Both the position numbers and the translations under genes were made by a program. The notes beneath the pieces were generated by a model. That model saw nothing but the letters and a program-made list of their open reading frames with translations. It was not told the DNA's origin and made no database searches. This document shows positions 5,223 to 63,671 of a stretch of DNA of 64,000 bases, piece by piece. Source of the DNA: a virus. The first letter of the stretch is position 1. Every line of letters begins with the position of its first letter. The stretch is taken from the IMG/VR virus record IMGVR_UViG_3300011270_000006; one strand, written 5' to 3'.

Positions 5223-5507
5223 TTATGGCTTACTACCATGTTCAATGTAATGAGATCGTTCCAACCCTAACCCCTCATATCCCTCCCATATCGTATTTCC
5301 TGCTAATAAGCGTACCTGGAGTCTTTCAGACTCCTCTCGTACATAACCAAACAAGGTGCTATAGCCTTTGACGCCATGAATACAATGCACCATAACCTGA
5401 TGCTCAACGCCATTGGTCTGTACCGGCTGGTTTTCATCACACCTTAAACTGCCCTGATTACATCTGTGCATCGCGACACCTCCTGAAAGTTTACTATTCC
5501 AAATCAA
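5223..5507 (-). CDS. hypothetical protein
   Basis: ORF 94 aa directly downstream of the integrase (4-nt overlap). Confidence 0.35.
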   Translation of the reverse strand: MIWNSKLSGGVAMHRCNQGSLRCDENQPVQTNGVEHQVMVHCIHGVKGYSTLFGYVREESERLQVRLLAGNTIWEGYEGLGLERSHYIEHGSKP

Positions 5508-6418
5508 TCTAGATATACAAAGTCTACCGCGTTATTGTCAAGGTTCAATTTACGCTTCTGGTATCGCTCAGTGGTACGCGGATCATCATGTCCTGCTGCG
5601 TACTGAACCTGCATCAACGTAGCACCGCCCTCTAATGCTAATGTAATGAACGTGGCACGCAGTCCGTGAGGAGTAAGCGTGTACACGCCGTTCTTCTCAC
5701 CATACACCTTCACCGTCCTCTCAATGAGCTTATCGCTCACTCTGATTGTGGTCGGACGGTCCCATCGATCAAAGCCCACGAAGAGCGGATCGCCAGGTGG
5801 TGCAGTGGACCTCTGCGTATCTTCAATGTACTCCTGGATGGAGCGGAAGACATCGACAGGCACCTTTGCCTTACGTCGCTTATCTCCCTTGCCGTGCCGA
5901 ATGATAGCAACATGGTGTCCTTGATCCATCATCAAATCACCGATGTTGAGCGCGGCACACTCTGATCGACGTATGCCCGTTCTCAGTAAGAATGAGATCA
6001 GTGCATAATCACGTTTGCCTCGATGCCTTGACTGATCGATGGATGCTAGCAAGTCTTTTGCCTGCTGTTTCGTGAGCGCGGTGTGTGGCGTCTCATTGTT
6101 CGCTTTAGGTATTCCTCTCATGCCTTCAAATGGGTTGGAGGTCCGTATACCGGCGTTAACCTGCTCTCTAAAGATATTTTTAGCGACTGAGATCATGCGC
6201 TTTACTGTCGCACCTGCATGTTTTTCATTAAGCCATGACAGGTACATTATGGCATTGGAGCGCGTGAATTTTCCAGGCACAAGAGCTTGATCTAGCATCC
6301 ATTCCGCCAGTACACGCGCATCGTGCTCATATACTGGCTTTGAGCGAGGCATGAGTTGACCTGTAGCGTCGGCAATGGATGCTGACAGATCGCAAGAGAT
6401 AAGGTCTGTCATTGTCAC
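5504..6418 (-). CDS. int: tyrosine site-specific recombinase (phage integrase/XerCD family)
   Basis: C-terminal catalytic signature ...HGLRATFITLALEGGATLMQVQYAAGHDDPRTTERY (the R..H..R..Y tetrad) plus an N-terminal SAM-like domain. Confidence 0.85.
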   Translation of the reverse strand: MTMTDLISCDLSASIADATGQLMPRSKPVYEHDARVLAEWMLDQALVPGKFTRSNAIMYLSWLNEKHAGATVKRMISVAKNIFREQVNAGIRTSNPFEGMRGIPKANNETPHTALTKQQAKDLLASIDQSRHRGKRDYALISFLLRTGIRRSECAALNIGDLMMDQGHHVAIIRHGKGDKRRKAKVPVDVFRSIQEYIEDTQRSTAPPGDPLFVGFDRWDRPTTIRVSDKLIERTVKVYGEKNGVYTLTPHGLRATFITLALEGGATLMQVQYAAGHDDPRTTERYQKRKLNLDNNAVDFVYLD

Positions 6419-9264: not shown

Positions 9265-10173
9265 CTAAGCCGCGCCCTTTGCGGCGGCGATAGCATAATC
9301 GACACGAATCGCCTCGTCATTCGTGATATCGGCAATCTCATCAGCGGTCACCTGACGCTCAACTACCTCAGTAATGTAAACCGCCATGCCGACACGATCA
9401 GCAAACAGTCCCTTCTCCTTGCCCTGCGAAAAGAGAACATTGAGTTGATCGCGTGATGCTTTGCGCACTGGCATCGGAGCACCATCAAGCCATGCTTTGA
9501 GCGTATCAGCCAAACGTCCATCAGGCTTCTCGATGACTTGATTGGCAAGCGCACTGCAACGGCTTTTCTGGACAATGAGAGTGTTGCTGTAATCCATCTC
9601 GAAGAAACAATCAAACTCATACTCAACGTCATTGCGTTGTACTGGAGCCATGCCAACCTTGCGAGGAATATTTCTACCGGTGCGTTCATCACGCTCAAGA
9701 GAATACTCCTGCTTAGAACGCATCGTACAGATGACGTGGAGATGAGCACGTGTTATTGCGTCTATGAGGCGATTCTGAATGGGAGTTGCCTCGCTCCATG
9801 CAGTGAAGGTGTTTGCAGATTTTGAGCGCTTGGCGACGCTCTCAACGATTTCTAATAAGCCTCCTGTACCGCTCCACGCGTGACTGAGCGAATCGATCAC
9901 CAGCACGCCGAAGCCAGCACGCTCAGCCTCGTGGATGATGTCAATAAAATTGTTAGGATGGAAATTATCGAGTTCGATCACGCTGAAATTGAAGAGATCC
10001 GCATATTTTGAGGCACTACCGCGCTCAGTGTCGAGGACGGCCACACCACCGTCACCGGCAAGAGCACTGGCAAGTAGCAGTGAAGTGTAGGTCTTCCCCG
10101 ATCCCGATGGGCCTGCAATAGCGATACGTGCCTTGCTCTCGTGCTTTACTGCTGGTTTGAATGAAAACGCCAT
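9265..10173 (-). CDS. Sak4-like RecA-fold ATPase (AAA_24 family), phage recombination protein
   Basis: Walker A IAIAGPSGSGKTYTS, Walker B VLVIDSLS; size and layout are typical of the phage Sak4/AAA_24 family. Confidence 0.75.
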   Translation of the reverse strand: MAFSFKPAVKHESKARIAIAGPSGSGKTYTSLLLASALAGDGGVAVLDTERGSASKYADLFNFSVIELDNFHPNNFIDIIHEAERAGFGVLVIDSLSHAWSGTGGLLEIVESVAKRSKSANTFTAWSEATPIQNRLIDAITRAHLHVICTMRSKQEYSLERDERTGRNIPRKVGMAPVQRNDVEYEFDCFFEMDYSNTLIVQKSRCSALANQVIEKPDGRLADTLKAWLDGAPMPVRKASRDQLNVLFSQGKEKGLFADRVGMAVYITEVVERQVTADEIADITNDEAIRVDYAIAAAKGAA

Positions 10174-20161: not shown

Positions 20162-20364
20162 TACGCTCAGTGGCAGAGTGGACGAGCATCAACAACCGCC
20201 TACAACAACGTTGGAATGGAACAAGCAGCAATTGCTAGCATTAGCCGAATGGTAAAGGCACTAGTTTCAACAACTAGACCCGAATAGGGAGTACAGGTCC
20301 AATTCCTGTATGCAATAGCAAAAGACCGACTCGGATTGGGCATTTTCGAGTCGGTCGCTTTTAT
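20155..20364 (+). ncRNA. candidate structured RNA (~205 nt) starting with an acceptor-like 5' strand and D-arm-like GCTCAGTGGCAGAGT, ending in an intrinsic terminator
   Basis: Several local hairpins (CTAG..CTAG, TACAGG..CCTGTA) and a terminator at 20324-20364; no ORF. Confidence 0.3.
20324..20364 (+). terminator. intrinsic terminator
   Basis: GACCGACTCG-gattgggcatttt-CGAGTCGGTC, a 10-bp perfect stem, followed by GCTTTTAT. Confidence 0.6.
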
Positions 20365-21774: not shown

Positions 21775-21921
21775 TAGGGAGGATGCGCGGTGCATCAACG
21801 CTCATATTTGTACACACGACGAACATCCTCCTCCATAGCATGCATGCGGTTAGATACTATCATGAGTAGCGATCCATTTAGTATCATCATTGATGCACAG
21901 ATTACCACAAGAGGAGAGAGC

Positions 21922-22848
21922 ATGGTGCAGCAAAAATATGTTTTGAGTGAACAGCAGAAGTTTTTTCTGCTAGAACTCTACGACGGTACCACCGAACGGA
22001 TTGAGATGCTTGCACGACACCATCTCTTTCACGGTGTCCCTCGGTGGAAAATGCGTCAATGGGCAGTCGAACTAGGACTTGCGAGATCTCGTGATCCCAG
22101 ATGGACGAAAGAGGATGAGAACTACTTGGAGCGTAATCTCCACAGAGAAAGTGTGCAAGATATCGCCGACCATCTCGGACGCACGGACACTGCGGTCAAA
22201 CTGAAAGCCAAGCGACTGGGCGTCAATAAATGCGACCAAGAAGGCTATACTCAGCGTGGTCTTTGCGCAGGTTTAGGTTGCAATCATCGCAAAATCAAAC
22301 GTTGGATCTCGAATGGCTGGCTCAAAGGATCTCGCCGACAGACTGAGCGGGCAGTTGACGATACGTGGTATTTTAGCGATTTCGCTATTTATCAGTTCAT
22401 TAAGGAGCATCCTGAAGAAATCGATCCGCGTCGGGCAGATTGGCTCTGGCTCGTTGACATCATGGCAGGTGGAGTTGGGGAACTCGGACACGAGTTCGAA
22501 TCTGCACCTCGCACAAACAGATTTCTCCATCCTCCTGCAACACCATCATCAGAGGAACACGCAAGAATGAGAGTTGAATATCCCGAAAAACTACGCTCTG
22601 CAACCCGGTTTGCACTCATGAAGTTTGTCAAGTGGCCGATCTCTCGGCACATGACCGTCAGCAAAGGGGAAGTGATCAGGCGCATGGGTGCTGTCCTCAT
22701 GTCCCACAGTGGTGTCGAGAGGTTCGTAAATGGGGCTAGTGTTCCCTACATCGTCGATGGCGGCAATGGCTATGTCCAGTGCGGCAATTATCGCCTGAGC
22801 TTTGATCAAAACCTTTCACCAATAATGGGGGACTACTATGGATCTTGA
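21922..22848 (+). CDS. hypothetical protein with two HTH-like segments
   Basis: Start at 21922 with strong RBS GAGGAGAGAG; WTKEDENYLERNLHRESVQDIADHLGRTDTAVKLKAKRLGV resembles a sigma-region-4/Myb-type HTH. Confidence 0.5.
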   Translation: MVQQKYVLSEQQKFFLLELYDGTTERIEMLARHHLFHGVPRWKMRQWAVELGLARSRDPRWTKEDENYLERNLHRESVQDIADHLGRTDTAVKLKAKRLGVNKCDQEGYTQRGLCAGLGCNHRKIKRWISNGWLKGSRRQTERAVDDTWYFSDFAIYQFIKEHPEEIDPRRADWLWLVDIMAGGVGELGHEFESAPRTNRFLHPPATPSSEEHARMRVEYPEKLRSATRFALMKFVKWPISRHMTVSKGEVIRRMGAVLMSHSGVERFVNGASVPYIVDGGNGYVQCGNYRLSFDQNLSPIMGDYYGS

Positions 22849-33719: not shown

Positions 33720-35066
33720 ATGAGCAACCACTTAGAGCCTATGTTACCTAGCTCTATCGAGGCAGAACAAGCTGTGCTCGGTAGCATTCTCATTGATCCT
33801 GACGCGCTCGTCCTGGTCAGTGACTTCTTGAATGCCGAGGACTTTTACCGTGATGCGCACCGCTCCATCTATGAGGTCATGCACTATCTACTTGAGCGAC
33901 AAGAACCTGCTGATATTATCTCCGTTTCCGATGAACTAGGACGCCGTAATGTCCATCTCGATTTGAAGCGTGACAACTTCTTTTACCTGCAATCGCTCGT
34001 CAATTGTATTCCCACCAGTGGGAATGCCGAGATGTATGCGCATATGATCGTCGAGAAAGCCATCCTGCGTCGTCTCCTGCATGCGGCTGGCACAATAGCC
34101 GCATCTGCACAAAATGACACGGCGGAAGAGGCGATCCTGCACGCAGAAGAAGCCATCTTTGCTATCTCACAACGTCAGCATACTGCTACCTACGCGCCAA
34201 TCGCTGATGTGGTATCCCGATGTATGAGCAAGATGGAGATGGTAAGTCAGAAGCGCGGATCAATCATTGGTGTACCAACTGGGTACGTCGATCTCGACAG
34301 AATGTTGGGAGGGCTACGTAGGAAAGCTCTCTATATCCTGGCTGCTCGCCCTGCACAGGGGAAAAGTGCTCTCGCGCTCAATATTGGTTATCATGCGGCA
34401 ACCAATGGCTATAAGGTCGCATTCTTCTCTTTGGAAATGGGTGATGAAGAATTAGCGTTTAGACTGATCTCGATGGAATCGGGTGTGGAAAGTCGCAGAT
34501 TGCAGGATGGATGGATCGAGGATGAGGACTGGCCGAAGGTTGAGGATGCCATGACGCGCATCTCTGAAAGTCAAATGGTGATTGACGAGACGGGCGGACT
34601 CTCCATCGCGATGCTACGTAGCCGAGTGCGACAGATACAAGCGAAGCAGGGGCTAGACTTCATCATTGTGGATTACCTGCAACTGCTTAATGCGAAGAAG
34701 GATGGTCGCCCTATTGAGAACCGTGTACAGGAGATTAGCGAGATTAGCCGCAATCTAAAGATGATTGCAAAAGAGTTGGACGTGCCTGTGCTTGCGCTTG
34801 CGCAGTTATCGCGTGCCGTTGAGTACCGAGCGTCGAAGATTCCGCAATTATCAGATCTACGGGAAAGTGGAAGTATCGAGGCCGATGCCGATTGTGTTAT
34901 TGGGCTGTATCGCGACATTGTTTACAACCCTGCAACCGAGAATCCAAACGCAGCAGATCTCATTATCTTAAAAAACCGGAGCGGCCCTACGGGTGAAATA
35001 CGATTACATTTCGTCCCAAGTAAAACGAAATTTTATAACATGATGGTAAGCCCTTCGGAGGAATAG
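33720..35066 (+). CDS. dnaB: replicative DNA helicase DnaB
   Basis: N-terminal DnaB domain (AEQAVLGSILIDPD), Walker A ARPAQGKSALALN, and H2/H3/H4 motifs (IIVDYLQLL, LAQLSR, LIILKNR). Confidence 0.9.
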   Translation: MSNHLEPMLPSSIEAEQAVLGSILIDPDALVLVSDFLNAEDFYRDAHRSIYEVMHYLLERQEPADIISVSDELGRRNVHLDLKRDNFFYLQSLVNCIPTSGNAEMYAHMIVEKAILRRLLHAAGTIAASAQNDTAEEAILHAEEAIFAISQRQHTATYAPIADVVSRCMSKMEMVSQKRGSIIGVPTGYVDLDRMLGGLRRKALYILAARPAQGKSALALNIGYHAATNGYKVAFFSLEMGDEELAFRLISMESGVESRRLQDGWIEDEDWPKVEDAMTRISESQMVIDETGGLSIAMLRSRVRQIQAKQGLDFIIVDYLQLLNAKKDGRPIENRVQEISEISRNLKMIAKELDVPVLALAQLSRAVEYRASKIPQLSDLRESGSIEADADCVIGLYRDIVYNPATENPNAADLIILKNRSGPTGEIRLHFVPSKTKFYNMMVSPSEE

Positions 35067-43742: not shown

Positions 43743-44723
43743 ATGGCGCATATTTACGTAGTCACCAATCAGAAGGGTGGCGTGAAGAAGACTACCAATA
43801 CTATTCAACTCGGCTATCAGTTCGCCAATCGAGGGTACAAGACGTTGCTGGTGAGTTTAGATCCACAATGCAACATCGACTACACCTTGCTTGGATACGT
43901 CGAGGATGAAGAGGAATTGAGTGATGACGACCTTGCCGCATTTCAGCAGGAGTTTGCGCAATTCGAGGATGAGTATGAGTTAGATGAGGCGGAAATGCAT
44001 CTAGATGATGACGAGAGCAGTGAGGAGCCTGTCTATCCAGGGTTTGGTGTGCCGACGCTCTATGATGTTATTCTTGGCATAAATGGAGAACCTCGCAAAA
44101 AACGGCCTATTGACGAAGTGATTGTGGCAGTGCCGCAGCAGCCGAACCTTTATCTTGCAAAAGGATCAATCGCCCTCTCGGATATGGATATCAAATTAGC
44201 GGCCACGAATGGACGTGAGAAGATCTTGAAACGTGCCATTGACACAATTACTAACGACTATGACATCATCCTTATTGATACACCGCCGACACTAGGACTT
44301 GCCCCAGTGAACGCTTTTTTTGCAGCGGGAAATCTGGTGAAACGGACGAATGGCATCGTTATCGCCATTTCGCCTCAAGCCTATTCGGTTCTGGGCATTC
44401 GCACACTACTTGGTGCATTTCTCGAATTACGCACTGCACTGGAAATACCTCTGCCGATATTTGGGGTTATCTGTGCTGACGTGAAACGAACGAAGAATGC
44501 CAGAAAACGCATTGTACAAGTTCGCCAATTCTTTCGTAAGGCCGTCTTTCAAACGATTATCCCGCAAAATGAGAAAGTGGAGGAGGCTGCCGATGTGCAA
44601 TTACCTCTGATGCAATTTGCCCCAAATAGTCCTGGTGCCAAAGCGTATGCAAGCCTTGCTGACGAATTCTTGCGCCGTGCCGGTTTGCCACTACAGAAGC
44701 AGGAGGAAGTGACTCATGCCTGA
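43743..44723 (+). CDS. parA: ParA/Soj-family partition ATPase with acidic insertion
   Basis: Deviant Walker A NQKGGVKKTT; Walker A' and B motifs; C-terminal region typical of ParA. Confidence 0.85.
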   Translation: MAHIYVVTNQKGGVKKTTNTIQLGYQFANRGYKTLLVSLDPQCNIDYTLLGYVEDEEELSDDDLAAFQQEFAQFEDEYELDEAEMHLDDDESSEEPVYPGFGVPTLYDVILGINGEPRKKRPIDEVIVAVPQQPNLYLAKGSIALSDMDIKLAATNGREKILKRAIDTITNDYDIILIDTPPTLGLAPVNAFFAAGNLVKRTNGIVIAISPQAYSVLGIRTLLGAFLELRTALEIPLPIFGVICADVKRTKNARKRIVQVRQFFRKAVFQTIIPQNEKVEEAADVQLPLMQFAPNSPGAKAYASLADEFLRRAGLPLQKQEEVTHA

Positions 44724-54603: not shown

Positions 54604-55097
54604 CTCGATTGTTCATCGAGAGCATTGCTTATATCCTCAAGCATAGAACAGATGTACTCTTGCTGGTCAATCTGTCTTCTATCCTCAAATTTAAGAAAGC
54701 TCAGGAATTCCTCTTTTGTCACTGATTTTCCATCAATGCGAATGCCTCCATCGTCAGGACAGGTGTGTTCAAATTGAAGAAGAGCGTAGCCAAGATACTT
54801 GATCTTTGTTGGTCGCTTGGCATTTTCGCGCCTCAAGGAGAAATCTGGATGTGTAAAGGCAAAACGCAGTGCCTGGTCAACAACGGACTGCGTATCTCTT
54901 TGTGCATAGGATGGTACTGCGTTATATGTTTTGATTTCTAAGAATCTGAGGTACCCATAACGGTATTGATGCCAGACAAATCGTTGAGTTCCATCAATAT
55001 CTTCGCCGTCGTAACCGTAGATTGAGGGTATTTCTGGATGGCTCCGAAGCCATTTGCTAAACGGTGTGTCCTTCTCATCTCGACGTGACCTTGTCAT
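54579..55097 (-). CDS. hypothetical protein
   Basis: ORF 172 aa, overlaps neighbours by about 20 nt. Confidence 0.45.
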   Translation of the reverse strand: MTRSRRDEKDTPFSKWLRSHPEIPSIYGYDGEDIDGTQRFVWHQYRYGYLRFLEIKTYNAVPSYAQRDTQSVVDQALRFAFTHPDFSLRRENAKRPTKIKYLGYALLQFEHTCPDDGGIRIDGKSVTKEEFLSFLKFEDRRQIDQQEYICSMLEDISNALDEQSRWEERERW

Positions 55098-56415
55098 GCT
55101 GCACTTCCCCTACCCCACTTAATCCCTTCATTCCACCCAATGCAGATGCGTGCCGATCCTGATCGACTTCTATTCCAATAGAGTGCCGATGAAGCTTGTG
55201 TGCAGCACGCAAGATTGTTCCCGATCCACACATGGGATCGACAATAAGTTGACCAGGCTTCGTCAACTTCTCAATGAAATAGGCAGCTTCGCCTTCACCC
55301 TGTGACCATTCGTGTACAGCTTTATCACCCTTGTCACCGCGATAGAGATCCATCAACCAATCATGCGCAAGAGGCTCGCCTTTACTGAACATGACAATCG
55401 GCTTCCAGTCATTCCATAAGGTATGCTTCCATATCTGAATGTGTCCGCCAGTGTGCTGCACACCCAGAAGCCAGCAATACTCTAAATGCTGTGTAAGAGC
55501 GTCGAGTACCTTTGGAAGAAAGAGTTGGCCGCTATAGGCGAGAAGGATGCCCCCAGGCGTGAGCACTCGCTGCGCAAAAGAGGAGAGATGCGTCCAGAGC
55601 AGGAGTTGTTCCTCTTGGTAAGGAGGATCGGTAAAAATAAGCGATACGGAATTATCCTGAATGCACGTACCGATTTCCATGAAGTCCCCAGGAGGAAGCA
55701 GTTGAATGCTATTTGGCAGGATAATGGTCTTTGCCTGTTCCGTGATTTGTTCTTTTTTAACCTTCGTCTTCTCTTCTTTTATCGCATCCTTGATGGGTTT
55801 ACTTACACGTCTACCAGTTTGCTCTTTTTTCTTAGTCGCCTGCTCAACAATGGCAGATTGACTTTCTTTTGGTAGATTGGCTATGGCCTTTGCATCTGGG
55901 AGCGTAATCGTTCCATTCGCTATATGCTCTTCTAATTCAGGTGCATGCTTCATAATATCTTTGGCGTGCTGTACATACTTCTCGTTGGTCCCAAAGTCTT
56001 TAGCGGCTAAACCGACCGATGCGCCAGATATCAAGATGGAATTTTTTCCATCTTGATATTCTTCGCTTTTATGGTCGCCTCCATGCCTTTTGGCCGATTC
56101 AGCTTCATAGAGAGGTAAACTACGTACCGCAATCATCGCTCTTTGACTACTATCTAAGTGCCGACGCCTAATATTCATGCTTACCGCAAAGGAGATAAGT
56201 GAGCCTTTGCAGTCCCACTCCTGATAGCGTGGCTCGACATTCGCCTCTAGACACGCACGATACCGATTACGTCCATCAATAATCTTGTCCTGGTACGTCC
56301 ATATCGGCTGCTGTAGCCCATGTTCACGGATATCTGTAACCAATTCGTCAAACGCTTGGCCTTCGATGAGGGGAAAGAGATTTGCAACTTCGTGGAATTC
56401 CACTACCACCTCCAC
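55075..56415 (-). CDS. ParB-like nuclease domain fused to DNA N6/N4 methyltransferase
   Basis: N-terminal ParB/Srx motif (GRNRYRAC); C-terminal motif IV IFTDPPYQ and motif I VDPMCGSGT (beta-class amino-methyltransferase order). Confidence 0.8.
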   Translation of the reverse strand: MEVVVEFHEVANLFPLIEGQAFDELVTDIREHGLQQPIWTYQDKIIDGRNRYRACLEANVEPRYQEWDCKGSLISFAVSMNIRRRHLDSSQRAMIAVRSLPLYEAESAKRHGGDHKSEEYQDGKNSILISGASVGLAAKDFGTNEKYVQHAKDIMKHAPELEEHIANGTITLPDAKAIANLPKESQSAIVEQATKKKEQTGRRVSKPIKDAIKEEKTKVKKEQITEQAKTIILPNSIQLLPPGDFMEIGTCIQDNSVSLIFTDPPYQEEQLLLWTHLSSFAQRVLTPGGILLAYSGQLFLPKVLDALTQHLEYCWLLGVQHTGGHIQIWKHTLWNDWKPIVMFSKGEPLAHDWLMDLYRGDKGDKAVHEWSQGEGEAAYFIEKLTKPGQLIVDPMCGSGTILRAAHKLHRHSIGIEVDQDRHASALGGMKGLSGVGEVQHDKVTSR

Positions 56416-57545: not shown

Positions 57546-59933
57546 TTACCTCTCTTTCGCAGATTGAGCGTACTTTAGCGCCTTGCCCACTTTATCATGC
57601 CCCATTGTACGTGCATACTTCCACCACTTGTCCGCGCCAGCCTCAACGACAGGGCGGCGTACAAGTTCATCATAAAGCGCAGGATATCCTAGCATATCGC
57701 CCTGCATCATGAAGTGGTAATGTACGATACAGTCAGCACACCAGTAGTTACCGCCATTGTCGTAGTTACCTATATCGTCGGTATTTTGTTGGTGATTACC
57801 ACTCATCGTGTAGTCAAACGATGTGGAGCAATGAGGTATTTCTTCGCCGTCAAGTCCACATGGAGGCTGACTCATGCCATTTTGAGCGGTTTCATCAGTG
57901 AAACTGACATCAAAAACCATGTCAGTAATGTCAGTTTGTTCTAACGCTACATCTGGAGCGGTGTTAGAGTCATCTCCCAAAACTGACATGTCAGTATCGG
58001 CTATATAGCTGGTTCTGACATTACTGATAGGACTTTGCGAACTGACATTACTGACATTACTGACATCGGATATAGACTCTTTCGGTTTTGGAGTGTAAAG
58101 AGAATTGCCGTTATAGGTATAAAGTCCTCTACTGGGACGTATGAGAATACCCTGTTCTAACTTCCGCTTCAACATCTGCTCCAAAGCATTGAGCGATTGC
58201 CCTGTGTTCAGCTTTTCATAGACCTCAACGGGTGTCATTGCCATTCCGTTCTCTTTCAATACCTCGATGAGTTCTGTTTCCTGCTCAGATTTTGGGTTAT
58301 TGGTTGGAGTTGCTTGATTAAGCAATTGGTCTTGTGTGTAAGGGCTGGCACCTTCCCATTCGATATACCCTATCTCACTTGGATTCTCATGGAAAGAATA
58401 GCGCAGGCTTGCGGTCTTCACTTTTGATGCAAGATTGTTTTTATGATTCACAATAACGCCACCCATTTCATTGTCGGGGTCAGGAACCACAAACAAACCA
58501 ATACGAAACAATGCGATAAATGCAATCGATGCCCCACTTCGATAGAGAGGATTGCCTGCTGATGTTTTATTGAGATGCATAACTCCAACAATGGCACAAT
58601 TTTGTTTTTCCGCCACTGTCATTACTCGCATTAACGCCAGCCGGACTGCTTGATCTTTATGTGTGTCATACTTGCCGTCAATCATGGAAAGAACGGGATC
58701 GATAATGGCGAGCGATGCTTTACAGTCAATCATAGCCTCTTCCAATATGGATGCATCATCTGGAAATGAGATAGGACGCTCGTATTCGTTCCCATCCTTG
58801 TCACGTTCGGTGACTTTGCTCAATAGAATCACTTTTGAGAGGTCCGCTCCCGCTGCAACTAAACGCGGTACAATCGTGTGGGAATCGCTCTCTTCGGGTG
58901 ACATGATGATGACGCCACCAGGCTCGATCTTATGGTTGTCTGGTAGCATCCCACCTGTCGTCACGGCAGAGGCTATCTTGGTAAGTGCCATCGACTTCCC
59001 TAGACCTGGATCACCAATGAGAAGTGTACCCATACCCCGTGCAATGCGTCTTTGCCATAGCCACTCCACAGGTTCTATTTCGACCTCAGAGGCGTAGAGG
59101 AACTTGCGTTTATGTGGCATGGTCATCCGCTCTAATTGTTCACGTGTCCCTCCAGCGGCTAACCAGTCAGACACATCACCTTTATCGGGCAAGTTTGGCA
59201 GATTGATAATACGAACCTCTTTCGTGATCTCCTGAAGATGTTTGGCTACATCCTCTCCGTGTTCTTTCCCCTTCTCGTCGTTATCAGGTAGGATCACCAC
59301 ACGCCGCCCCTGAAAGTAGGGATTGCAACTCTCTTGCCAATTGCCCGCTCCTCCTGAACTGGTTGTAGCGATGAGTCCCTTATTGGAAAGATTGTCAGCG
59401 TCTTTTTCGCCCTCAACAATGTAGACAGTGGTATCAAGTGATGCTCTAAGCAACTCAGGTAGACGGTATGGTATACGTGTAACACCATCTAACTTGTATA
59501 CCCATTCGCCATTTACGGGTCTGCGCTGGTTAAAACCTTTGTCAGCATAGCGCATCACTTGATAGGCGAGTCTTCCTCTTTCATCCTGATAGGAGTAGGT
59601 GGCTACTAACTCTCGACGGGCGGATGTTTCGCTTCGCTTCTTAACTGCTGTAGTTTTCGGAGGATTGAGAGGGGTGATTGTTGCACCGTGTTGTGCGCCG
59701 CATTTACATGGGCCTTTTAGTTTATGCCAGTAACCTTCTGGTGATGTTGATGCTAACTCCAGCGAACCCGCATGCTCTTCTCGTGTGCAGAGAGCGTACT
59801 CGTGATCATCACTCATGAACCCGCTACATCGTTCGCCTATACCGCGCTTTGTGTGATCGAAGCCTTGACATATGGGGCATCGCGAACTTGCCGTGAGGAA
59901 GCGTTGCTTGTTGGTGACAGAAGATATTGTCAT
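57546..59933 (-). CDS. DNA primase (Toprim) fused to RepA/DnaB-like AAA_25 helicase, with N-terminal zinc-binding region
   Basis: Toprim acidic motifs YIVEGEKDA and ILPDNDEKG; Walker A GDPGLGKSM and Walker B AIIDPV; N-terminal CPICQG...C..C. Confidence 0.75.
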   Translation of the reverse strand: MTISSVTNKQRFLTASSRCPICQGFDHTKRGIGERCSGFMSDDHEYALCTREEHAGSLELASTSPEGYWHKLKGPCKCGAQHGATITPLNPPKTTAVKKRSETSARRELVATYSYQDERGRLAYQVMRYADKGFNQRRPVNGEWVYKLDGVTRIPYRLPELLRASLDTTVYIVEGEKDADNLSNKGLIATTSSGGAGNWQESCNPYFQGRRVVILPDNDEKGKEHGEDVAKHLQEITKEVRIINLPNLPDKGDVSDWLAAGGTREQLERMTMPHKRKFLYASEVEIEPVEWLWQRRIARGMGTLLIGDPGLGKSMALTKIASAVTTGGMLPDNHKIEPGGVIIMSPEESDSHTIVPRLVAAGADLSKVILLSKVTERDKDGNEYERPISFPDDASILEEAMIDCKASLAIIDPVLSMIDGKYDTHKDQAVRLALMRVMTVAEKQNCAIVGVMHLNKTSAGNPLYRSGASIAFIALFRIGLFVVPDPDNEMGGVIVNHKNNLASKVKTASLRYSFHENPSEIGYIEWEGASPYTQDQLLNQATPTNNPKSEQETELIEVLKENGMAMTPVEVYEKLNTGQSLNALEQMLKRKLEQGILIRPSRGLYTYNGNSLYTPKPKESISDVSNVSNVSSQSPISNVRTSYIADTDMSVLGDDSNTAPDVALEQTDITDMVFDVSFTDETAQNGMSQPPCGLDGEEIPHCSTSFDYTMSGNHQQNTDDIGNYDNGGNYWCADCIVHYHFMMQGDMLGYPALYDELVRRPVVEAGADKWWKYARTMGHDKVGKALKYAQSAKER

Positions 59934-60026
59934 CGCGCCACCTCGCAGTCACCGAATGCAAGCATTGACGTTTGTGTATCACCTGTGGTATCATCAGATA
60001 TGTAGATGCGCGGCTTCGGCCAGCGT

Positions 60027-60108
60027 GCTATAATGCAACAGGGCATAAGAATACCTTTCTACGATAGCCAGCAAACCTTAGTGGGAGTAGCTGGCTATCA
60101 CTTTTATT
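60027..60108 (+). ncRNA. candidate small RNA: extended -10 promoter TGcTATAAT, ~65-nt transcript, intrinsic terminator
   Basis: TGCTATAAT at 60027-60035; hairpin GATAGCCAGC-n17-GCTGGCTATC at 60063-60099 followed by ACTTTTATTT; no ORF; antisense to the primase-helicase 5' region. Confidence 0.35.
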
Positions 60109-60125
60109 TAATTGAAAAATAACAA

Positions 60126-60170
60126 AGGCGTAGTAAGCCGCTAAAAGCGACCTGCTACGCCTGACTTTTT
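60126..60170. terminator. bidirectional intrinsic terminator
   Basis: AGGCGTAG-n21-CTACGCCT with GACTTTTT on the + side and TTGTTATTTTTC on the minus strand. Confidence 0.5.
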
Positions 60171-60292
60171 GATAAGAACCTCACTACAACCATGACACAT
60201 TTCTCTTTCTCATCTCACGAGGAACAAAGTATAACAGATTGCGTTCATCTCTGCACGCATTATGAACAGTTACAGAGATGAACGTTCTATGA

Positions 60293-60565
60293 TTACAGTA
60301 TCAGACCTACGCGACGTAGTTGGTCGCGTGCGAACTGAGGAGTTTGAACGTACTCGGTGATGAGCCTGCCCACGATTGAACGTAACTCGTGGGCCTCTGC
60401 GATGACTGGGTCTTCATCGAGTATCGGATGCACCAAGAAGCGCCCTACGTTATCACGCTCAATAACAACACCCACTTCAAGTGTGAGGCTAGCGACTTCA
60501 GCCAGCAAATAACCATCAATGATGGATTGCAGCGGATCGCGTTGTCCGTCTGTGGGAGGAATCAC
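60293..60565 (-). CDS. hypothetical small protein (second gene of a two-gene operon, TA-like layout)
   Basis: 90 aa; 2-nt gap to the upstream small gene. Confidence 0.4.
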   Translation of the reverse strand: MIPPTDGQRDPLQSIIDGYLLAEVASLTLEVGVVIERDNVGRFLVHPILDEDPVIAEAHELRSIVGRLITEYVQTPQFARDQLRRVGLIL

Positions 60566-60567
60566 GG

Positions 60568-60810
60568 CTATTCCTCCCCATTGGGTGAGAAGTTCTGGAC
60601 ATAAGCAGCGCGTTTTGCTGCTACACGTTGCTGCTCACGCTCTACCTCGTCTAGCTCCGACCAGGGAAGCTTACAGGGACGGCCATTACGAAACAACAGG
60701 TAAAGAGGCATGTCGTCGCCATATGCAGCGCACACGCCGCTCATGATGGAGGCGAGGTTGTCACGGAGTTCCGCGATGGGCATTTGCTCAAGTTGCGTAG
60801 GGGTAATCAT
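60568..60810 (-). CDS. hypothetical small protein (first gene of the pair)
   Basis: 80 aa. Confidence 0.4.
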   Translation of the reverse strand: MITPTQLEQMPIAELRDNLASIMSGVCAAYGDDMPLYLLFRNGRPCKLPWSELDEVEREQQRVAAKRAAYVQNFSPNGEE

Positions 60811-60920
60811 TATGCTAAAATCTCCCTTGTGCTACACTGATTGGTTTTCGAGGCGAAGCAGTGTAGCCGGAATGGGCCGTCCGAAAGGGCGGCTTTTCTT
60901 GTTAATAGTAGAATACATTG

Positions 60921-60995
60921 TATATGGTTAAATGCTTTCAATGTTTCGTAACTATTATACGTAGCCGAGGAATAGATGTCAAGGGAAATCACGGT
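60921..60995. repeat. left arm of ~70-bp imperfect inverted repeat flanking the MerR-GNAT gene
   Basis: Shares TTTCAATGTTTCGTA and GATGTCAAGGGAAATCA with the reverse complement of 61965-62046. Confidence 0.55.
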
Positions 60996-61043
60996 ATTTT
61001 ATACGCAATATTTAACGCCCTCCAACATCGGAGGGCGTTGCTT

Positions 61044-61865
61044 TTAATTGTTATAGACTTTCCATTTAGCTAGTGCGGCTTTGTATGGTTGGATTAACGG
61101 GATACCTGATTGTTCTACATCGATAATGAAGTTTCTCTCATTTGTTGTCGATACAATTTCAGTGAAGCCCAGACGCTTCAATAGATTAATGCCATCACGG
61201 GTATCGCTCCTGGCTGCGAGAAGTTTAATCTCGATACCTCTCTGTCCTAAGTTAACCAGAAATCGAAGGATGCCACGAATCAGCGTTGATCCTCTCGCTC
61301 GTTTAATCTTAAATCCGGTTTGTGATCGAACCGCCATTCCCATAATGAATATGCAGGCAGGCTGTCCAGGTCTGTATTGCTGAATATCGTCGCCATTGAC
61401 AAGTCTTGTGGATGGTGTCGGATCATCAAAGAGTTGATAAATCTTCTCCTCAGTGAGTGGGGGAGCAAACACGCATCCGACAATTTTACCTCCGACTTTG
61501 TTCCTCTCAATAAAGGCTACTTCTGGATTACGCTGTATCCATTCCATGCGCCTCTCAACTGTATCGCCACCACCAAACACCCCGATAAGGAGGTTGACAG
61601 TTTCGCGTATATCCTGTTCTGTTGCTACCATAAATCTTGGTCCTGGCTCTCCTGGTTCTGTGTAAAATTCATCGATAACTTTTACAAGGTTATCTACATC
61701 TTCGCGTTTATAGAAACCCTGCCCCATCCCAGGTGGAACAAGACGCTCAACCTTGCCTTGCTGGACGTAGTAACGCAACTTTCCATCACTGATGTTACCA
61801 AGTCTTCTCTTGGCAGTGGTCGCAGTACAATAGCCTATTGGTGGATGTCCTCTTTGCACTATCAT
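61044..61865 (-). CDS. MerR-like HTH fused to GNAT N-acetyltransferase
   Basis: N-terminal YCTATTAKRRLGNISDGKLRYYVQQGKV (MerR/HTH_17-like); C-terminal GNAT motif A RGSTLIRGILRFLVNLGQRGIEIKLLA; start uncertain (61865 or 61898). Confidence 0.55.
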   Translation of the reverse strand: MIVQRGHPPIGYCTATTAKRRLGNISDGKLRYYVQQGKVERLVPPGMGQGFYKREDVDNLVKVIDEFYTEPGEPGPRFMVATEQDIRETVNLLIGVFGGGDTVERRMEWIQRNPEVAFIERNKVGGKIVGCVFAPPLTEEKIYQLFDDPTPSTRLVNGDDIQQYRPGQPACIFIMGMAVRSQTGFKIKRARGSTLIRGILRFLVNLGQRGIEIKLLAARSDTRDGINLLKRLGFTEIVSTTNERNFIIDVEQSGIPLIQPYKAALAKWKVYNN

Positions 61866-61964
61866 AGTATCTCGCTTTCTCTGATGTATAGACATCATTA
61901 TTGTATGCGAAATTTTACACAATGACAATACATTGAAGCATCGAATAATTACAACGCCATGAAA

Positions 61965-62046
61965 TTTCCTGTATTTTGCCTTGATTTCCCTTGACACATC
62001 AATGTTTTTCAGGCATACTAAAAATGGTACGAAACATTGAAAGTAT
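61965..62046. repeat. right arm of the inverted repeat; contains outward promoter TTGACA-17-CATACT
   Basis: TGATTTCCCTTGACAcATC and TACGAAACATTGAAAG mirror the left arm. Confidence 0.55.
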
Positions 62047-62068
62047 TAAAACGTGTTTAGGAGAGATA

Positions 62069-62290
62069 TGGATGAGTAATACCACGTTTCAGCACCTTTT
62101 GTTAGAGGCAAATCTTTCTCTCGGTGGTTGGTCACGAGCCGCCAATGTTGATCCGAAGACGGCGCGAAAGGCTATTCGTGGTGAACGGGTCCAGCCTCTC
62201 AAGGCATATGCACTACTCAAGGCATTAAGTAAAGCGCTAGGTCGAGAAGTTGAGGCAGATGATATCCCAGAGTGGAGGAGCGTGAGTTAA
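62069..62290 (+). CDS. XRE-family HTH protein
   Basis: Start at 62069 with RBS TAGGAGAG; LSLGGWSRAANVDPKTARKAIRG matches the HTH pattern. Confidence 0.5.
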   Translation, partial: WMSNTTFQHLLLEANLSLGGWSRAANVDPKTARKAIRGERVQPLKAYALLKALSKALGREVEADDIPEWRSVS

Positions 62291-62327
62291 AAGTGTCAAC
62301 CGTAGGGAAACGCGACCATTTTTCAGA
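62288..62327 (+). repeat. conserved ~40-bp intergenic motif, copy R1
   Basis: TAAAAGTGTCAACCGTAGGGAAACGCGACCATTTTTCAGAG. Confidence 0.7.
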
Positions 62328-62343
62328 GAAAGGGAGCACACAC

Positions 62344-62634
62344 ATGGCGACCAATCCGCTCGGCAAACGTTGCGACAACAAAATGTCACCGTCTGGCAAA
62401 CTGCTGTGTATCCATCCAGGGTGCCAGCGCATCGCCACCGTTCGGGTCACGATGAGCGGACGGTTCCTCCACTCTTTCCGGTGTGCCAGTCACATTGGGA
62501 GCGCAGCAGTGGTGCAGGAGCGTAACACGGCTGGATTCATTGGTGAGACACGAGTCTTGGCTGGTTTCGGGCCGCTACGCTACACGGCGCGGTGGCAGGA
62601 ACGTGCTGATAGCAATGCCTATAGCCAGGTGTAG
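62344..62634 (+). CDS. small Cys/His protein
   Basis: Start at 62344 with RBS AAGGGAG; CDNK...CIHPGC...C..H. Confidence 0.45.
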   Translation: MATNPLGKRCDNKMSPSGKLLCIHPGCQRIATVRVTMSGRFLHSFRCASHIGSAAVVQERNTAGFIGETRVLAGFGPLRYTARWQERADSNAYSQV

Positions 62635-62649
62635 GAGAAAGGAACGTTC

Positions 62650-62868
62650 ATGAACGCTGAGCCGTTGGAAGTGCATGACATTGTAGACTTTCGTGGGAAA
62701 CGTGCGCAAGTGTTCGCTTTGTATTCTCGTGTGGAGGATGACGGTTCTGCACTGGTGTTGAGGTGCGGCATCAAAATGCTCAATGGTCGAAAGGATGCTG
62801 CCGAGCGTTGGGTGAAACCTGAGCGAGTTCTGTTAGTGAGGCATAGCGAAATAAAGTGTCGAGCGTAG
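62650..62868 (+). CDS. hypothetical small protein
   Basis: ORF 72 aa. Confidence 0.4.
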   Translation: MNAEPLEVHDIVDFRGKRAQVFALYSRVEDDGSALVLRCGIKMLNGRKDAAERWVKPERVLLVRHSEIKCRA

Positions 62869-62891
62869 GGAAATCCGACCATTTTTGAAAG
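62852..62891 (+). repeat. conserved intergenic motif, copy R2
   Basis: ATAAAGTGTCGAGCGTAGGGAAATCCGACCATTTTTGAAAG. Confidence 0.7.
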
Positions 62892-62898
62892 TGAGTAT

Positions 62899-63201
62899 GT
62901 GGATATGGAGCATCTTGGCAATGTGCGTCGTCGCATCAAATGGGCGGCTCAGGGCAATGAGGCAGCCACGAACAAGTTGCTGACGCTGCTTTCGGGTTTG
63001 GAGTTCGATCGAGCGTTGTGGGAGGAGATTACGCAGCACATGGCGGATACACAGAGTCACCTGCGCAATGCGTTGGGGTACTTGCCAGATAGCGAGGCGA
63101 AGACGGACTGGGAGGCGTTATTGCAGGACGAAGCAAGACCACCGGATATGGTGCGAAGCGCAGTAAAAGGGGCGCATTTCGCAGGAAAGGAGCAACAATG
63201 A
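62899..63201 (+). CDS. hypothetical small protein
   Basis: ORF 100 aa. Confidence 0.45.
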   Translation: MDMEHLGNVRRRIKWAAQGNEAATNKLLTLLSGLEFDRALWEEITQHMADTQSHLRNALGYLPDSEAKTDWEALLQDEARPPDMVRSAVKGAHFAGKEQQ

Positions 63202-63383
63202 CAGCAGCAGAGGCTATTCGCGCATTTCTCACGGCTCATCCCACGTGGCGTGGCGTGGAAGACGCTCTTTCCGTCAAGGAAAGGGATGAGTGGACATACA
63301 TTGTGTTTCAGGGATCGGAGATCGGGCGCGTAAAAATTGAAGGCAGGACTATTCTTGCTGAGGCTCTTTGGACTACCAGTTAA
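63198..63383 (+). CDS. hypothetical small protein
   Basis: ORF 61 aa, ATGA-coupled. Confidence 0.35.
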   Translation: MTAAEAIRAFLTAHPTWRGVEDALSVKERDEWTYIVFQGSEIGRVKIEGRTILAEALWTTS

Positions 63384-63410
63384 AAGTGTCCAGCGTAGGG
63401 ATTTTGAGGC
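63371..63410 (+). repeat. conserved intergenic motif, copy R3
   Basis: TAAAAGTGTCCAGCGTAGGGATTTTGAGGCATTTTCAGGG. Confidence 0.7.
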
Positions 63411-63431
63411 ATTTTCAGGGAAGGCAGACAC

Positions 63432-63638
63432 ATGGATATCTTTGGTTGGCTTCGTCCGAAGGCACCAGCGACGAGTGGATTGGTGATCGAGGAGTTATCG
63501 TTCGTAGGGACAACACAAGAGCTTGCAGCGCACCTACAGACGCTGGCCGATGAACATGGATGGGTGCTAGAGACGGATCAGGAGAAGGTGCAAGCGTTTA
63601 TTGAGCGGTTGAGCAAATTGTCACATCCGCAGAAGTAG
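63432..63638 (+). CDS. hypothetical small protein
   Basis: ORF 68 aa. Confidence 0.4.
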   Translation: MDIFGWLRPKAPATSGLVIEELSFVGTTQELAAHLQTLADEHGWVLETDQEKVQAFIERLSKLSHPQK

Positions 63639-63671
63639 TGCGAAGCGTAGTAAAATCGAGGCATTTTGTAG
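63632..63671 (+). repeat. conserved intergenic motif, copy R4 (more diverged)
   Basis: GAAGTAGTGCGAAGCGTAGTAAAATCGAGGCATTTTGTAG. Confidence 0.6.

What the first reader, a model, noticed from the sequence alone, without database searches (positions are those of the whole stretch)
60921..62046. MerR-HTH/GNAT acetyltransferase gene bracketed by ~70-bp inverted repeats carrying outward-facing promoters
The regions 60921-60995 and 61965-62046 are imperfect inverted repeats sharing TTTCAATGTTTCGTA and GATGTCAAGGGAAATCA. Each arm contains TTGACA-17-CATACT pointing away from the central gene. The right arm would drive the XRE HTH gene at 62069; the left arm would drive the two-gene TA-like operon at 60810-60293. 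The central protein fuses a MerR-type HTH to a GNAT domain. That architecture suggests a regulator that binds both arms and could acetylate a target, making a symmetric regulatory switch. Alternatively the inverted repeats mark a small mobile cassette.
Basis: seen in the sequence. Interest (0 to 1): 0.6.

Follow-up and report, generated by a model that had tools for sequence, protein, structure and literature searches.

The report
Twin outward promoters around HTH-GNAT regulator
A regulator gene on a phage-like mobile element of a soil bacterium sits between two outward-facing promoters that carry the same operator sequence, a layout like phage lambda's immunity region but built around an uncharacterised DNA-binding/acetyltransferase fusion protein.

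Summary
The inverted repeat is real. Arms 60928-61009 and 61964-62050 share two exact blocks of 15 and 16 nt; 300 shuffles never exceeded 14. Each arm is an outward sigma-70-type promoter (left TTGACA-17-TATAAT, right TTGACA-17-CATACT) followed by the box TACGAAACATTGAAAG at the transcription start.

The central 273-aa protein is an excisionase/MerR-type winged HTH fused to a GNAT fold (AF2 pLDDT 89; Foldseek and Pfam across the family). The family has at least 190 clusters at 50% identity, all unnamed.

In about 20 unrelated loci the homologues keep the same upstream module. It has a divergent TTGACA-17/18-TATACT promoter (at least 11/12 in 18 of 26 regions, against 0.1% of shuffles), a palindromic TTTCAATGTTTC-type operator just downstream, a second box, and an own promoter ending in TACAAT. 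So the right arm is family-wide.

The left arm exists only in this element. It places an orphan two-gene operon under the same operator.

Best reading: a lambda-like OL/PL-repressor-OR/PR switch of a temperate mobile element. It is not a mobile cassette: no transposase or target duplication is evident, and no relative carries the block. The TA reading is unsupported. Binding and acetylation are untested.

The parts
60928..61009 (-). Left arm of the inverted repeat: a leftward promoter plus operator boxes
60954..60982 (-). P_left: TTGACA-17-TATAAT (12/12 consensus), pointing to the 80-aa/90-aa operon
60935..60950 (-). Box B, left copy (plus strand reads CTTTCAATGTTTCGTA). It starts 3 nt after the -10 and covers the predicted transcription start
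60977..60991 (-). Box A, left copy: TGATTTCCC + TTGACA (-35 and 9 nt upstream)
60910..60922 (-). Extra half-site-like box (minus strand TACAATGTATTCT), inverted relative to box B and 24 nt from it
   Evidence: (D1)
61013..61040 (.). G+C-rich hairpin between the stop of the HTH-GNAT gene and P_left. The scan calls it terminator-like on the plus strand; on the minus strand the tail is TTAAATATT
61044..61865 (-). HTH-GNAT gene, 273 aa plus stop: excisionase/MerR-type winged HTH (about residues 10-65) and GNAT fold (about residues 75-273)
61900..61928 (-). Own promoter TTGTCA-17-TACAAT. Homologues have the same TTGTnn-17/18-TACAAT at -64..-32 from the ATG
61925..61942 (-). Proximal operator-like box (minus strand GCTTCAATGTATTGT) abutting the own -35, centred near -39
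61964..62050 (+). Right arm of the inverted repeat. It is the family-conserved divergent promoter/operator module
61991..62019 (+). P_right: TTGACA-17-CATACT, pointing to the XRE-like gene
61982..61996 (+). Box A, right copy: TGATTTCCCTTGACA
61999..62007 (+). Half-site TCAATGTTT inside the -35/-10 spacer of P_right, inverted relative to box B (24 nt between them)
62028..62043 (+). Box B, right copy: TACGAAACATTGAAAG, at about +3..+18 of P_right
62072..62290 (+). 72-aa orphan protein with a five-helix XRE/Cro-type fold; first gene of the rightward operon of small ORFs
60293..60810 (-). Leftward two-gene operon (80 aa, then 90 aa, stop/start adjacent). No family match for either protein; the 80-aa protein has no homologue

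Best explanation
The 1.1-kb unit is the control region of a temperate mobile element, a prophage-like or integrative element probably of a Ktedonobacteria host. The central gene encodes a member of an uncharacterised family of Xis/MerR-type HTH + GNAT fusion proteins. In this family the gene always carries a stereotyped upstream module. That module has its own promoter (TTGTnn-17/18-TACAAT), a back-to-back divergent promoter (TTGACA-17/18-TATACT), and operators built from TTTCAATGTTTC-like half-sites at the start site of the divergent promoter and next to the own -35. The right arm is this module. The left arm is a second copy of only the functional boxes (the -35 with 9 upstream nt, and the operator box), placed after the gene's terminator hairpin and facing away. 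It puts a second, leftward operon under the same operator. Most likely mechanism (inferred): dimers of the HTH-GNAT protein bind the boxes, occlude the -10/+1 regions of P_right and P_left, and so repress both outward operons. The box at about -39 of the own promoter would give autoregulation. The GNAT domain would provide dimerisation and/or a ligand-sensing (acetyl-CoA) or acetylating function that sets the switch. Topologically this matches lambda's OL/PL - cI - PRM/OR/PR immunity region. Shown here: the repeat, the promoter-like elements, the domain architecture, and the family-wide conservation of the module. Inferred: which protein binds, the sign of regulation, and the role of the GNAT domain.
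For: The repeat is beyond chance. Both arms are near-consensus outward promoters. Similarity between the arms is confined to two exact boxes, while the 17-nt spacers and the -10 hexamers differ. That pattern fits selection on binding sites better than a recent duplication. The half-site TCAATGT[TA]T occurs four times in 60938-62040 and nowhere else in the 64 kb; the stricter 10-mer occurs three times against 0.29 expected. The sites lie at the P_left start, in the P_right spacer, at the P_right start and next to the own -35. In 26 non-redundant upstream regions of homologues (31-69% identical), 18 have a divergent promoter scoring at least 11/12, against 0.1% of shuffles. Seventeen of 26 have an own promoter scoring at least 10/12 in the last 80 nt, against 1.1% of shuffles. 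Palindromes lie directly downstream of the divergent -10, for example L018 GTTTCAATGTTTGAAACATTGAAAC and L051 TTTCAATGTTTCAAAACATTGAAA. The flanking genes differ between loci: a TnpB, sigma-like proteins, small HTH proteins, or a 17-gene operon of small ORFs. The HTH-GNAT gene is therefore the only constant partner of the operator. Domain calls: AF2 pLDDT 89; Foldseek GNAT hits at E about 1e-5 with TM to target 0.6-0.7; Acetyltransf_9 in 15/27 members, MerR_1 in 13/27 and HTH_17 in 4/27; a phage excisionase match to the N-terminal 65 residues. Mobile-element context: primase/helicase, DnaB, ParA, ParB-methyltransferase, tyrosine integrase, AAA_24 and amidase in the window. Homologues lie on two IMG/VR viral contigs, one beside a primase and one beside a terminase-like gene.
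Against: No binding data exist. In this window the operators are single strong half-sites with degenerate partners, not the tight palindromes seen in relatives. The bracketing left arm is found only in this element (L002 and L003 are the same element with 1 SNP), so the two-armed layout itself has no comparative support. The XRE-like protein or a host factor could bind the same boxes. No phage structural genes were identified in the window among the ORFs tested. The canonical GNAT Q/RxxGxG/A motif is only partly kept (RxxGxT; read from the alignment).
Confidence: 0.6

Rival explanations
1. The shared boxes are operators, but for another protein: the 72-aa XRE/Cro-like product of 62072-62290 or a host factor. 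The HTH-GNAT protein would then be a regulated cargo enzyme or have other DNA targets.
For: The 72-aa protein has an XRE-type fold and is the first gene behind P_right. Several other loci also have small HTH proteins or sigma-like proteins as the divergent gene.
Against: The 72-aa protein is an orphan with no homologue in 5.8 billion sequences and none in any related locus. Yet the same half-site and module recur upstream of HTH-GNAT homologues whose divergent genes are unrelated or absent.
Confidence: 0.17
2. The inverted repeats are the termini of a small mobile or invertible cassette carrying the HTH-GNAT gene: a MITE- or IS-like unit, or a segment flipped by a site-specific recombinase.
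For: Arms of about 80 nt in inverted orientation bracket one gene. The gene family occurs in many different contexts, once beside a TnpB. A tyrosine integrase lies in the window at 5504-6418.
Against: There is no transposase or invertase in or next to the unit, and I saw no direct duplication in the sequence flanking the arms. In about 20 distinct related loci, including the 69% and 62% relatives, only the upstream module is present and no downstream arm. Similarity is limited to promoter and operator boxes. The three available copies have the same orientation, but they are one element.
Confidence: 0.05
3. A fused toxin-antitoxin-like module: the HTH plays the part of the DNA-binding antitoxin and the GNAT that of a TacT/AtaT-type toxin. 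It would be autoregulated through the palindromes, and the arms would simply be its operators.
For: [quoted passage not shown] A GNAT toxin structure (7byy) is among the Foldseek hits. The context is a mobile element.
Against: One polypeptide gives no obvious way to free a toxin. The best structural matches are N-terminal acetyltransferases and small-molecule GNATs, not specifically the toxins. The conserved feature of the family is a strong divergent promoter that drives other genes, not just autoregulation.
Confidence: 0.08

Closest known systems
Lambdoid immunity region (OL/PL - rex/cI - PRM/OR/PR)
   Same: A repressor gene is transcribed from its own promoter, back to back with a divergent early promoter. 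A second early promoter lies downstream of the repressor gene and points away from it. Related operator sequences at both outward promoters, in inverted orientation, make a kilobase-scale inverted repeat. A small XRE/Cro-type protein is the first product of the rightward operon. One operator box sits near -40 of the repressor's own promoter. (Lambda layout from established knowledge; layout here.)
   Different: The protein is unrelated to CI: an Xis/MerR-type winged HTH instead of HTH_3, and a GNAT fold instead of the S24 autopeptidase domain. So any induction signal would not be RecA-mediated cleavage. There are one or two half-sites per promoter instead of three full operators. The arms are 1.05 kb apart instead of 2.4 kb. 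The left arm is not conserved in relatives. Binding, cooperativity and looping are untested.
GNAT-RHH / GNAT-Xre type II toxin-antitoxin modules (TacAT, AtaRT, KacAT; predicted in PMC2701414)
   Same: A DNA-binding module is paired with a GNAT fold on mobile elements, with palindromic operators in the promoter.
   Different: Here the two are one polypeptide. The HTH is of the excisionase/MerR type. The operator also controls a strong divergent promoter and, in this element, a second operon. No toxin-specific similarity was seen.
Excisionase/MerR-like small DNA-binding proteins (Xis, BldC, HTH_17/MerR_1)
   Same: The N-terminal domain matches MerR_1/HTH_17 profiles in the family and a mycobacteriophage excisionase model. 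Some operators contain short direct repeats in 8-nt phase (for example TTGAAGCATTGAAAC in L004), which recalls the head-to-tail binding described for BldC (my own knowledge, not tested).
   Different: It is fused to a 190-residue GNAT domain. Canonical MerR regulators have a coiled-coil dimerisation helix and act on promoters with 19-20-bp spacers. Here the spacers are 17-18 bp and the model shows no such helix between the domains.

Membership tests
GNAT (GCN5-related N-acetyltransferase) superfamily | GNAT alpha/beta fold | tested here: met
   AF2 model pLDDT 89, pTM 0.80. 227 PDB chains match at E<=0.001; the top hits are Naa10, Ard1, SbzI and NatC, with prob 1.0 and TM to target 0.6-0.7. 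Acetyltransf_9 matches 15/27 family members and Acetyltransf_1 10/27. The window protein alone gives no Pfam GNAT hit.
GNAT (GCN5-related N-acetyltransferase) superfamily | Acetyl-CoA pyrophosphate-binding motif Q/R-x-x-G-x-G/A at beta4-alpha3 | tested here: inconclusive
   R189-A-R-G192-S-T lies at the start of helix 185-208. R189 is nearly invariant and G192 invariant in 27 sequences, but the last position is T, not G/A.
GNAT (GCN5-related N-acetyltransferase) superfamily | Acetyl-transfer activity on a defined substrate | not testable with these tools
   Needs biochemistry.
Canonical MerR-family transcription regulators | N-terminal winged HTH of the MerR type | tested here: inconclusive
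   MerR_1 E=0.0017, 18.8 bits, below the 21.6-bit cut-off for the window protein. 13/27 members match MerR_1 and 4/27 match HTH_17. A phage excisionase is the structural match for the N-terminal domain.
Canonical MerR-family transcription regulators | Long coiled-coil dimerisation helix followed by an effector-binding domain; action on promoters with over-long 19-20-bp spacers | tested here: not met
   The model shows a helix at 54-68 and then directly the GNAT fold. All three promoters here and those of relatives have 17-18-bp spacers.
Lambda CI-type (HTH_3 + S24 peptidase) repressors | XRE-type HTH plus LexA-like autopeptidase domain | tested here: not met
   No such Pfam or PHROG hits. The fold is winged HTH + GNAT.
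Lambda-like immunity region (layout, not homology) | Repressor gene flanked by two outward promoters with related operators, with its own promoter divergent from one of them | tested here: met
   This tests the layout only; function is not tested.
Lambda-like immunity region (layout, not homology) | The central protein binds the operators and represses both promoters | not testable with these tools
   Only indirect support: the operator co-occurs with the gene across unrelated contexts.
IS / MITE / IR-flanked mobile cassette | Terminal inverted repeats with a target-site duplication and a transposase (in cis or trans); presence/absence as a block | tested here: not met
   No transposase in the unit, and I saw no direct repeat in the sequence flanking the arms. 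About 20 related loci carry the gene with the upstream module only.
Type II toxin-antitoxin pair (for 60810-60293) | Recognisable antitoxin and toxin families in a two-gene operon | tested here: not met
   No Pfam (even at E<=10, except ABATE at 0.16), NCBIfam, PHROG or PADLOC hits. The 80-aa protein has no homologue. Only the size and the stop/start adjacency are TA-like.

The most novel reading that the evidence does not exclude
The Xis-type HTH + GNAT proteins are a new class of master repressors of temperate phages and integrative elements in Ktedonobacteria and relatives. In them a GNAT domain replaces the RecA-sensitive peptidase domain of CI-type repressors. The maintenance/induction switch would then be set by acetyl-CoA (or another acyl-CoA or ligand) binding, or by acetylation of the repressor itself or of a partner, coupling lysogeny to the metabolic state of the host.
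Probability: 0.25. Interest if true: 0.75.

Novelty: new variant of a known kind. Interest (0 to 1): 0.5.

Why it matters
If the reading is right, it defines the operator, three target promoters and the likely regulator of an unstudied group of mobile elements in Ktedonobacteria, soil Chloroflexota with almost no genetics. It also gives a first functional hypothesis for a sizeable unnamed protein family: 190 cluster representatives at E<=1e-30 and 452 at E<=1e-10. A repressor whose effector domain is a GNAT fold would be a different way of wiring a genetic switch to physiology. The predicted sites are specific enough to test directly by EMSA and reporter fusions. If it is wrong, the region is still an ordinary pair of related promoters.

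Tried and rejected
1. Mobile cassette. I searched 700 nt downstream of the gene in about 18 distinct related loci for a match to the upstream module. Nothing better than 8-13-nt chance matches turned up outside this element. L050, L051 and L052, checked by eye, also lack a downstream arm.
2. Co-occurrence of neighbours. tblastn of the 80-aa, 90-aa, 72-aa, 96-aa, second 72-aa and 100-aa proteins against 47 loci found them only in L002 and L003, which are the same element.
3. Homologue searches for the 72-aa and 80-aa proteins returned only the proteins themselves.
4. Rfam at E<=1 on 59900-62400 gave no match.
5. A PDB sequence search with the family profile gave nothing significant; the best hit was NAT16 at E 0.8.
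6. tblastn of the protein against INPHARED phages and PLSDB plasmids gave no match.
7. The GTDB representative genomes yielded only one distant (30%) locus, from a Ktedonobacteraceae MAG.
8. PADLOC gave only an HTH-level hit to mad1 (E 1e-4), which is not evidence for a defence system.
10. I looked for further copies of the arms elsewhere in the window as a general repeated promoter. There are none.
11. Two literature searches found no description of this fusion as a regulator.

Full report
OBSERVATION

The region was read directly. The repeat finder reports two colinear inverted blocks: 60928-60959 / 62019-62050 (32 nt, 81%) and 60977-61009 / 61964-61996 (33 nt, 76%). When the left arm is aligned as reverse complement to the right arm, the two are 77% identical per column, with a single 5-nt indel.

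The similarity is concentrated in two exact boxes:
- Box A, TGATTTCCCTTGACA: 60977-60991 (minus strand) and 61982-61996 (plus strand).
- Box B, TACGAAACATTGAAAG: 60935-60950 (minus strand) and 62028-62043 (plus strand).

The 17-nt promoter spacers and the -10 hexamers between the boxes are unrelated. Each exact 15-mer occurs only at these two places in the 64-kb window. The longest exact inverted repeat in 60200-62800 is 16 nt. In 300 dinucleotide-preserving shuffles the maximum was 14, reached once.

The consensus scan finds:
- TTGACA-17-TATAAT (12/12) on the minus strand at 60982..60954.
- TTGACA-17-CATACT on the plus strand at 61991-62019.
- A third promoter, TTGTCA-17-TACAAT, on the minus strand at 61928..61900, in front of the central gene.

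THE GENES

The central ORF is listed from a GTG at 61997. Twenty-six homologues align from the ATG at 61865 (MIVQRGHPP...), so the gene is 61865..61044 and encodes 273 aa.

On its own the window protein gives only a sub-threshold MerR_1 hit (E 0.0017, residues 25-63) and no GNAT hit. Across the family, however, Acetyltransf_9 matches 15/27 members, MerR_1 13/27, Acetyltransf_1 10/27 and HTH_17 4/27.

An AlphaFold2 model built on the family alignment has mean pLDDT 89 and pTM 0.80. Foldseek finds 227 PDB chains at E<=0.001, all GNAT enzymes (Naa10, Ard1, SbzI, NatC and others), with TM to target 0.6-0.7 over about 180-220 columns. Against BFVD the C-terminal part again hits GNATs, and the N-terminal 65 residues match a mycobacteriophage excisionase. 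The architecture is therefore an Xis/MerR-type winged HTH fused to a GNAT fold.

It is not a canonical MerR regulator. There is no coiled-coil helix, and the promoter spacers are 17-18 bp. The R189-x-x-G192 element at the start of helix alpha3 is conserved, but the motif ends in T. Acetyl-CoA binding is therefore plausible, and catalysis is unknown.

The rightward gene (62072-62290, 72 aa) and the first leftward gene (60810-60568, 80 aa) have no homologues at all in the 5.8-billion-protein collection. They have no family hits either. A single-sequence model of the 72-aa protein (best model pLDDT 84) is a five-helix bundle. Its top 50 PDB matches are mostly XRE-type HTH proteins (C.EcoT38IS, ClgR, HigA, HipB, SinR), at weak E-values (0.08-0.6) but probabilities of 0.9-1.0. 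'XRE-like' is therefore supported at fold level. 'TA-like' for the leftward pair is not supported by anything beyond size and gene overlap.

CONTEXT

The window carries hallmarks of a mobile element:
- Toprim + AAA_25 primase/helicase, directly left of the locus (57546-59933)
- DnaB-type helicase (33720-35066)
- ParA (43743-44723)
- ParB-methyltransferase (55075-56415)
- several DNA methyltransferases
- a tyrosine integrase (5504-6418)
- AAA_24 (9265-10173)
- Amidase_2 (1210-2115)

The relatives that carry taxonomic labels are Ktedonobacteraceae. Two homologues lie on IMG/VR viral contigs of 109 and 60 kb. One is 5 kb from a primase and the other 3 kb from a weak terminase-like hit. There is no match in cultured-phage or plasmid records.

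COMPARATIVE EVIDENCE

I collected about 50 loci. None except L002 and L003 share any neighbouring gene with the window, and those two are the same element with one SNP. The neighbours of the homologues vary: a TnpB, sigma-70-like proteins, small HTH proteins, and a 17-gene operon of 54-104-aa ORFs.

Despite this, the 260 nt upstream of the homologues have one architecture. Counting from the ATG:
- an own promoter, TTGTnn-17/18-TACAAT, at -64..-32;
- an operator-like box beside its -35;
- a divergent promoter, TTGACA/TTGATA-17/18-TATACT;
- 6-14 nt past that -10, a palindrome built from TTCAA/TTGAA-containing half-sites.

Eighteen of 26 non-redundant regions have a divergent promoter scoring at least 11/12, against 0.1% of shuffled controls. 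Seventeen of 26 have an own promoter scoring at least 10/12 within the last 80 nt, against 1.1%.

In the subfamily nearest the window the half-site is the window's box B:
- L051 (62%): TTTCAATGTTTCAAAACATTGAAA, plus a second TTTCAATGTTTCAAATATTCAATG at the own -35.
- L018: GTTTCAATGTTTGAAACATTGAAAC.
- L011: a 50-nt palindrome.
- L004: GTTTCAATGCTTCAAtgatTTGAAGCATTGAAAC.
- L049: TCAATGTTtgtAACATTGA.
- L050 (69%): ACAATGTTTCG.

More distant subfamilies have different but related palindromes, such as AAGGTTTCGAAACCTT and GGACTTCAAAGTCC. That is what co-evolution of a regulator with its site would look like.

The right arm is therefore the family-wide regulatory module, and the HTH-GNAT gene is the only constant partner of the operator.

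A downstream copy, equivalent to the left arm, was not found in any of about 20 distinct loci.

ANATOMY IN THE WINDOW

The half-site TCAATGT[TA]T occurs four times between 60938 and 62040 and nowhere else in the 64 kb. The stricter 10-mer occurs three times against 0.29 expected. The sites are:
- 60938 (plus strand): inside box B at the P_left start.
- 61928 (minus strand): abutting the own -35, centred near -39.
- 61999 (plus strand): in the P_right spacer.
- 62032 (minus strand): inside box B at +3..+18 of P_right.

A fifth, weaker copy (ACAATGTAT) lies at 60912-60920. At P_right two inverted half-sites bracket the -10, with 24 nt between them. At P_left box B starts 3 nt after the -10.

A G+C-rich hairpin (61013-61040) separates the regulator gene from P_left.

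MECHANISM

The best-supported reading is a switch with lambda's topology. The regulator is transcribed leftward from its own promoter. A divergent rightward early promoter leads to a Cro-like small HTH protein and a string of small ORFs. A second, leftward early promoter sits downstream of the regulator gene. All three carry the regulator's operator.

Binding at -10/+1 predicts repression of both outward promoters. The box at about -39 of the own promoter predicts autoregulation; its position is the one from which lambda CI activates PRM (established knowledge). The GNAT domain would supply dimerisation and a ligand or acetylation input. All of these steps are inference.

RIVALS

- The XRE-like protein or a host factor binds the boxes instead (0.17). 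Against this: the protein is an orphan, whereas the operator travels with the HTH-GNAT gene.
- A mobile or invertible cassette (0.05). Against this: no transposase, no target duplication evident, no block-wise presence/absence, and similarity restricted to functional boxes.
- A fused TA-like module (0.08).

VERDICT

The finding is real. The regulatory reading is partly supported and can be sharpened. The cassette reading and the TA label are not supported.

In kind, a regulator with operators at flanking promoters is ordinary. The regulator family and its stereotyped module, however, appear undescribed: none of the homologues carries a functional name beyond 'hypothetical' or a generic GNAT label, neither library search found a paper describing such a fusion as a regulator, and the profile search finds at least 190 cluster representatives.

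Noticed in passing
window 60826-60905 (+), with possible promoter at 60793-60821 (+): A two-hairpin RNA on the plus strand (MFE -35.3 kcal/mol, z = -4.0). Its second hairpin plus TTTTCTTG is terminator-like. A possible extended -10 (TGcTAAAAT) lies just upstream. It would be a roughly 75-nt RNA antisense to the 5' UTR of the leftward operon, ending next to its Shine-Dalgarno sequence. The same stretch read on the minus strand folds less well (z = -1.9). No Rfam hit.
   Followed up: partly
window 60811-60947 (-): The leftward operon has an unusually long (about 137-nt) structured leader, against about 45 nt for the rightward gene. This may mean a second layer of control of the 80-aa/90-aa pair.
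   Followed up: no
window 60125-60165 (-): Hairpin GGCGTAGCAGGTCGC...GCGGCTTACTACGCC followed by TTTGTTATTTTT on the minus strand, downstream of the 90-aa gene. It looks like the terminator of the leftward operon, so the primase/helicase (59933-57546) probably has its own promoter. The consensus scan did not list it (one mismatch in the stem).
   Followed up: no
L004/L005/L006 2233-3564 (and L007, L008): In one lineage the 58%-identical homologue lies directly downstream of a TnpB (OrfB_IS605 / Cas12f1-like_TNB) gene. Its divergent promoter then points at the TnpB 3' end with no ORF to drive, possibly because an IS605-family insertion cut off the divergent operon.
   Followed up: no
L015, L016, L035, L038 (198-aa ORFs), L014/L036 (224-aa ORF), upstream and divergent from the homologue: In several loci the divergent promoter leads to proteins with sigma-70-like sequence features (for example ...DDLYSVGMLA.CE...). 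I judged this from the sequence only and did not scan it. If it holds, the module would control an element-encoded sigma factor.
   Followed up: no
profile search hits P0034, P0037, P0041, P0044 and others: Many family members are about 500-700 aa with two or three matched stretches. That suggests tandem duplications or fusions of the HTH-GNAT unit.
   Followed up: no
window 62072-63640 (+): Behind P_right lies a run of small ORFs (72, 96, 72, 100, 61 and 68 aa). None of the first four, the only ones scanned, has a family hit, as in early regions of phages. L052 has a comparable 17-gene run.
   Followed up: partly
window 1-60000: The window as a whole looks like a temperate mobile element: Amidase_2 (1210-2115), tyrosine integrase (5504-6418), AAA_24 (9265-10173), tRNA-Leu (20235-20317), D5-like regulator (21790-22848), three or more DNA methyltransferases, DnaB (33720-35066), ParA (43743-44723), ParB-methyltransferase (55075-56415), DUF7873 and DUF6610. 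No capsid, portal or terminase was identified among the ORFs scanned.
   Followed up: partly
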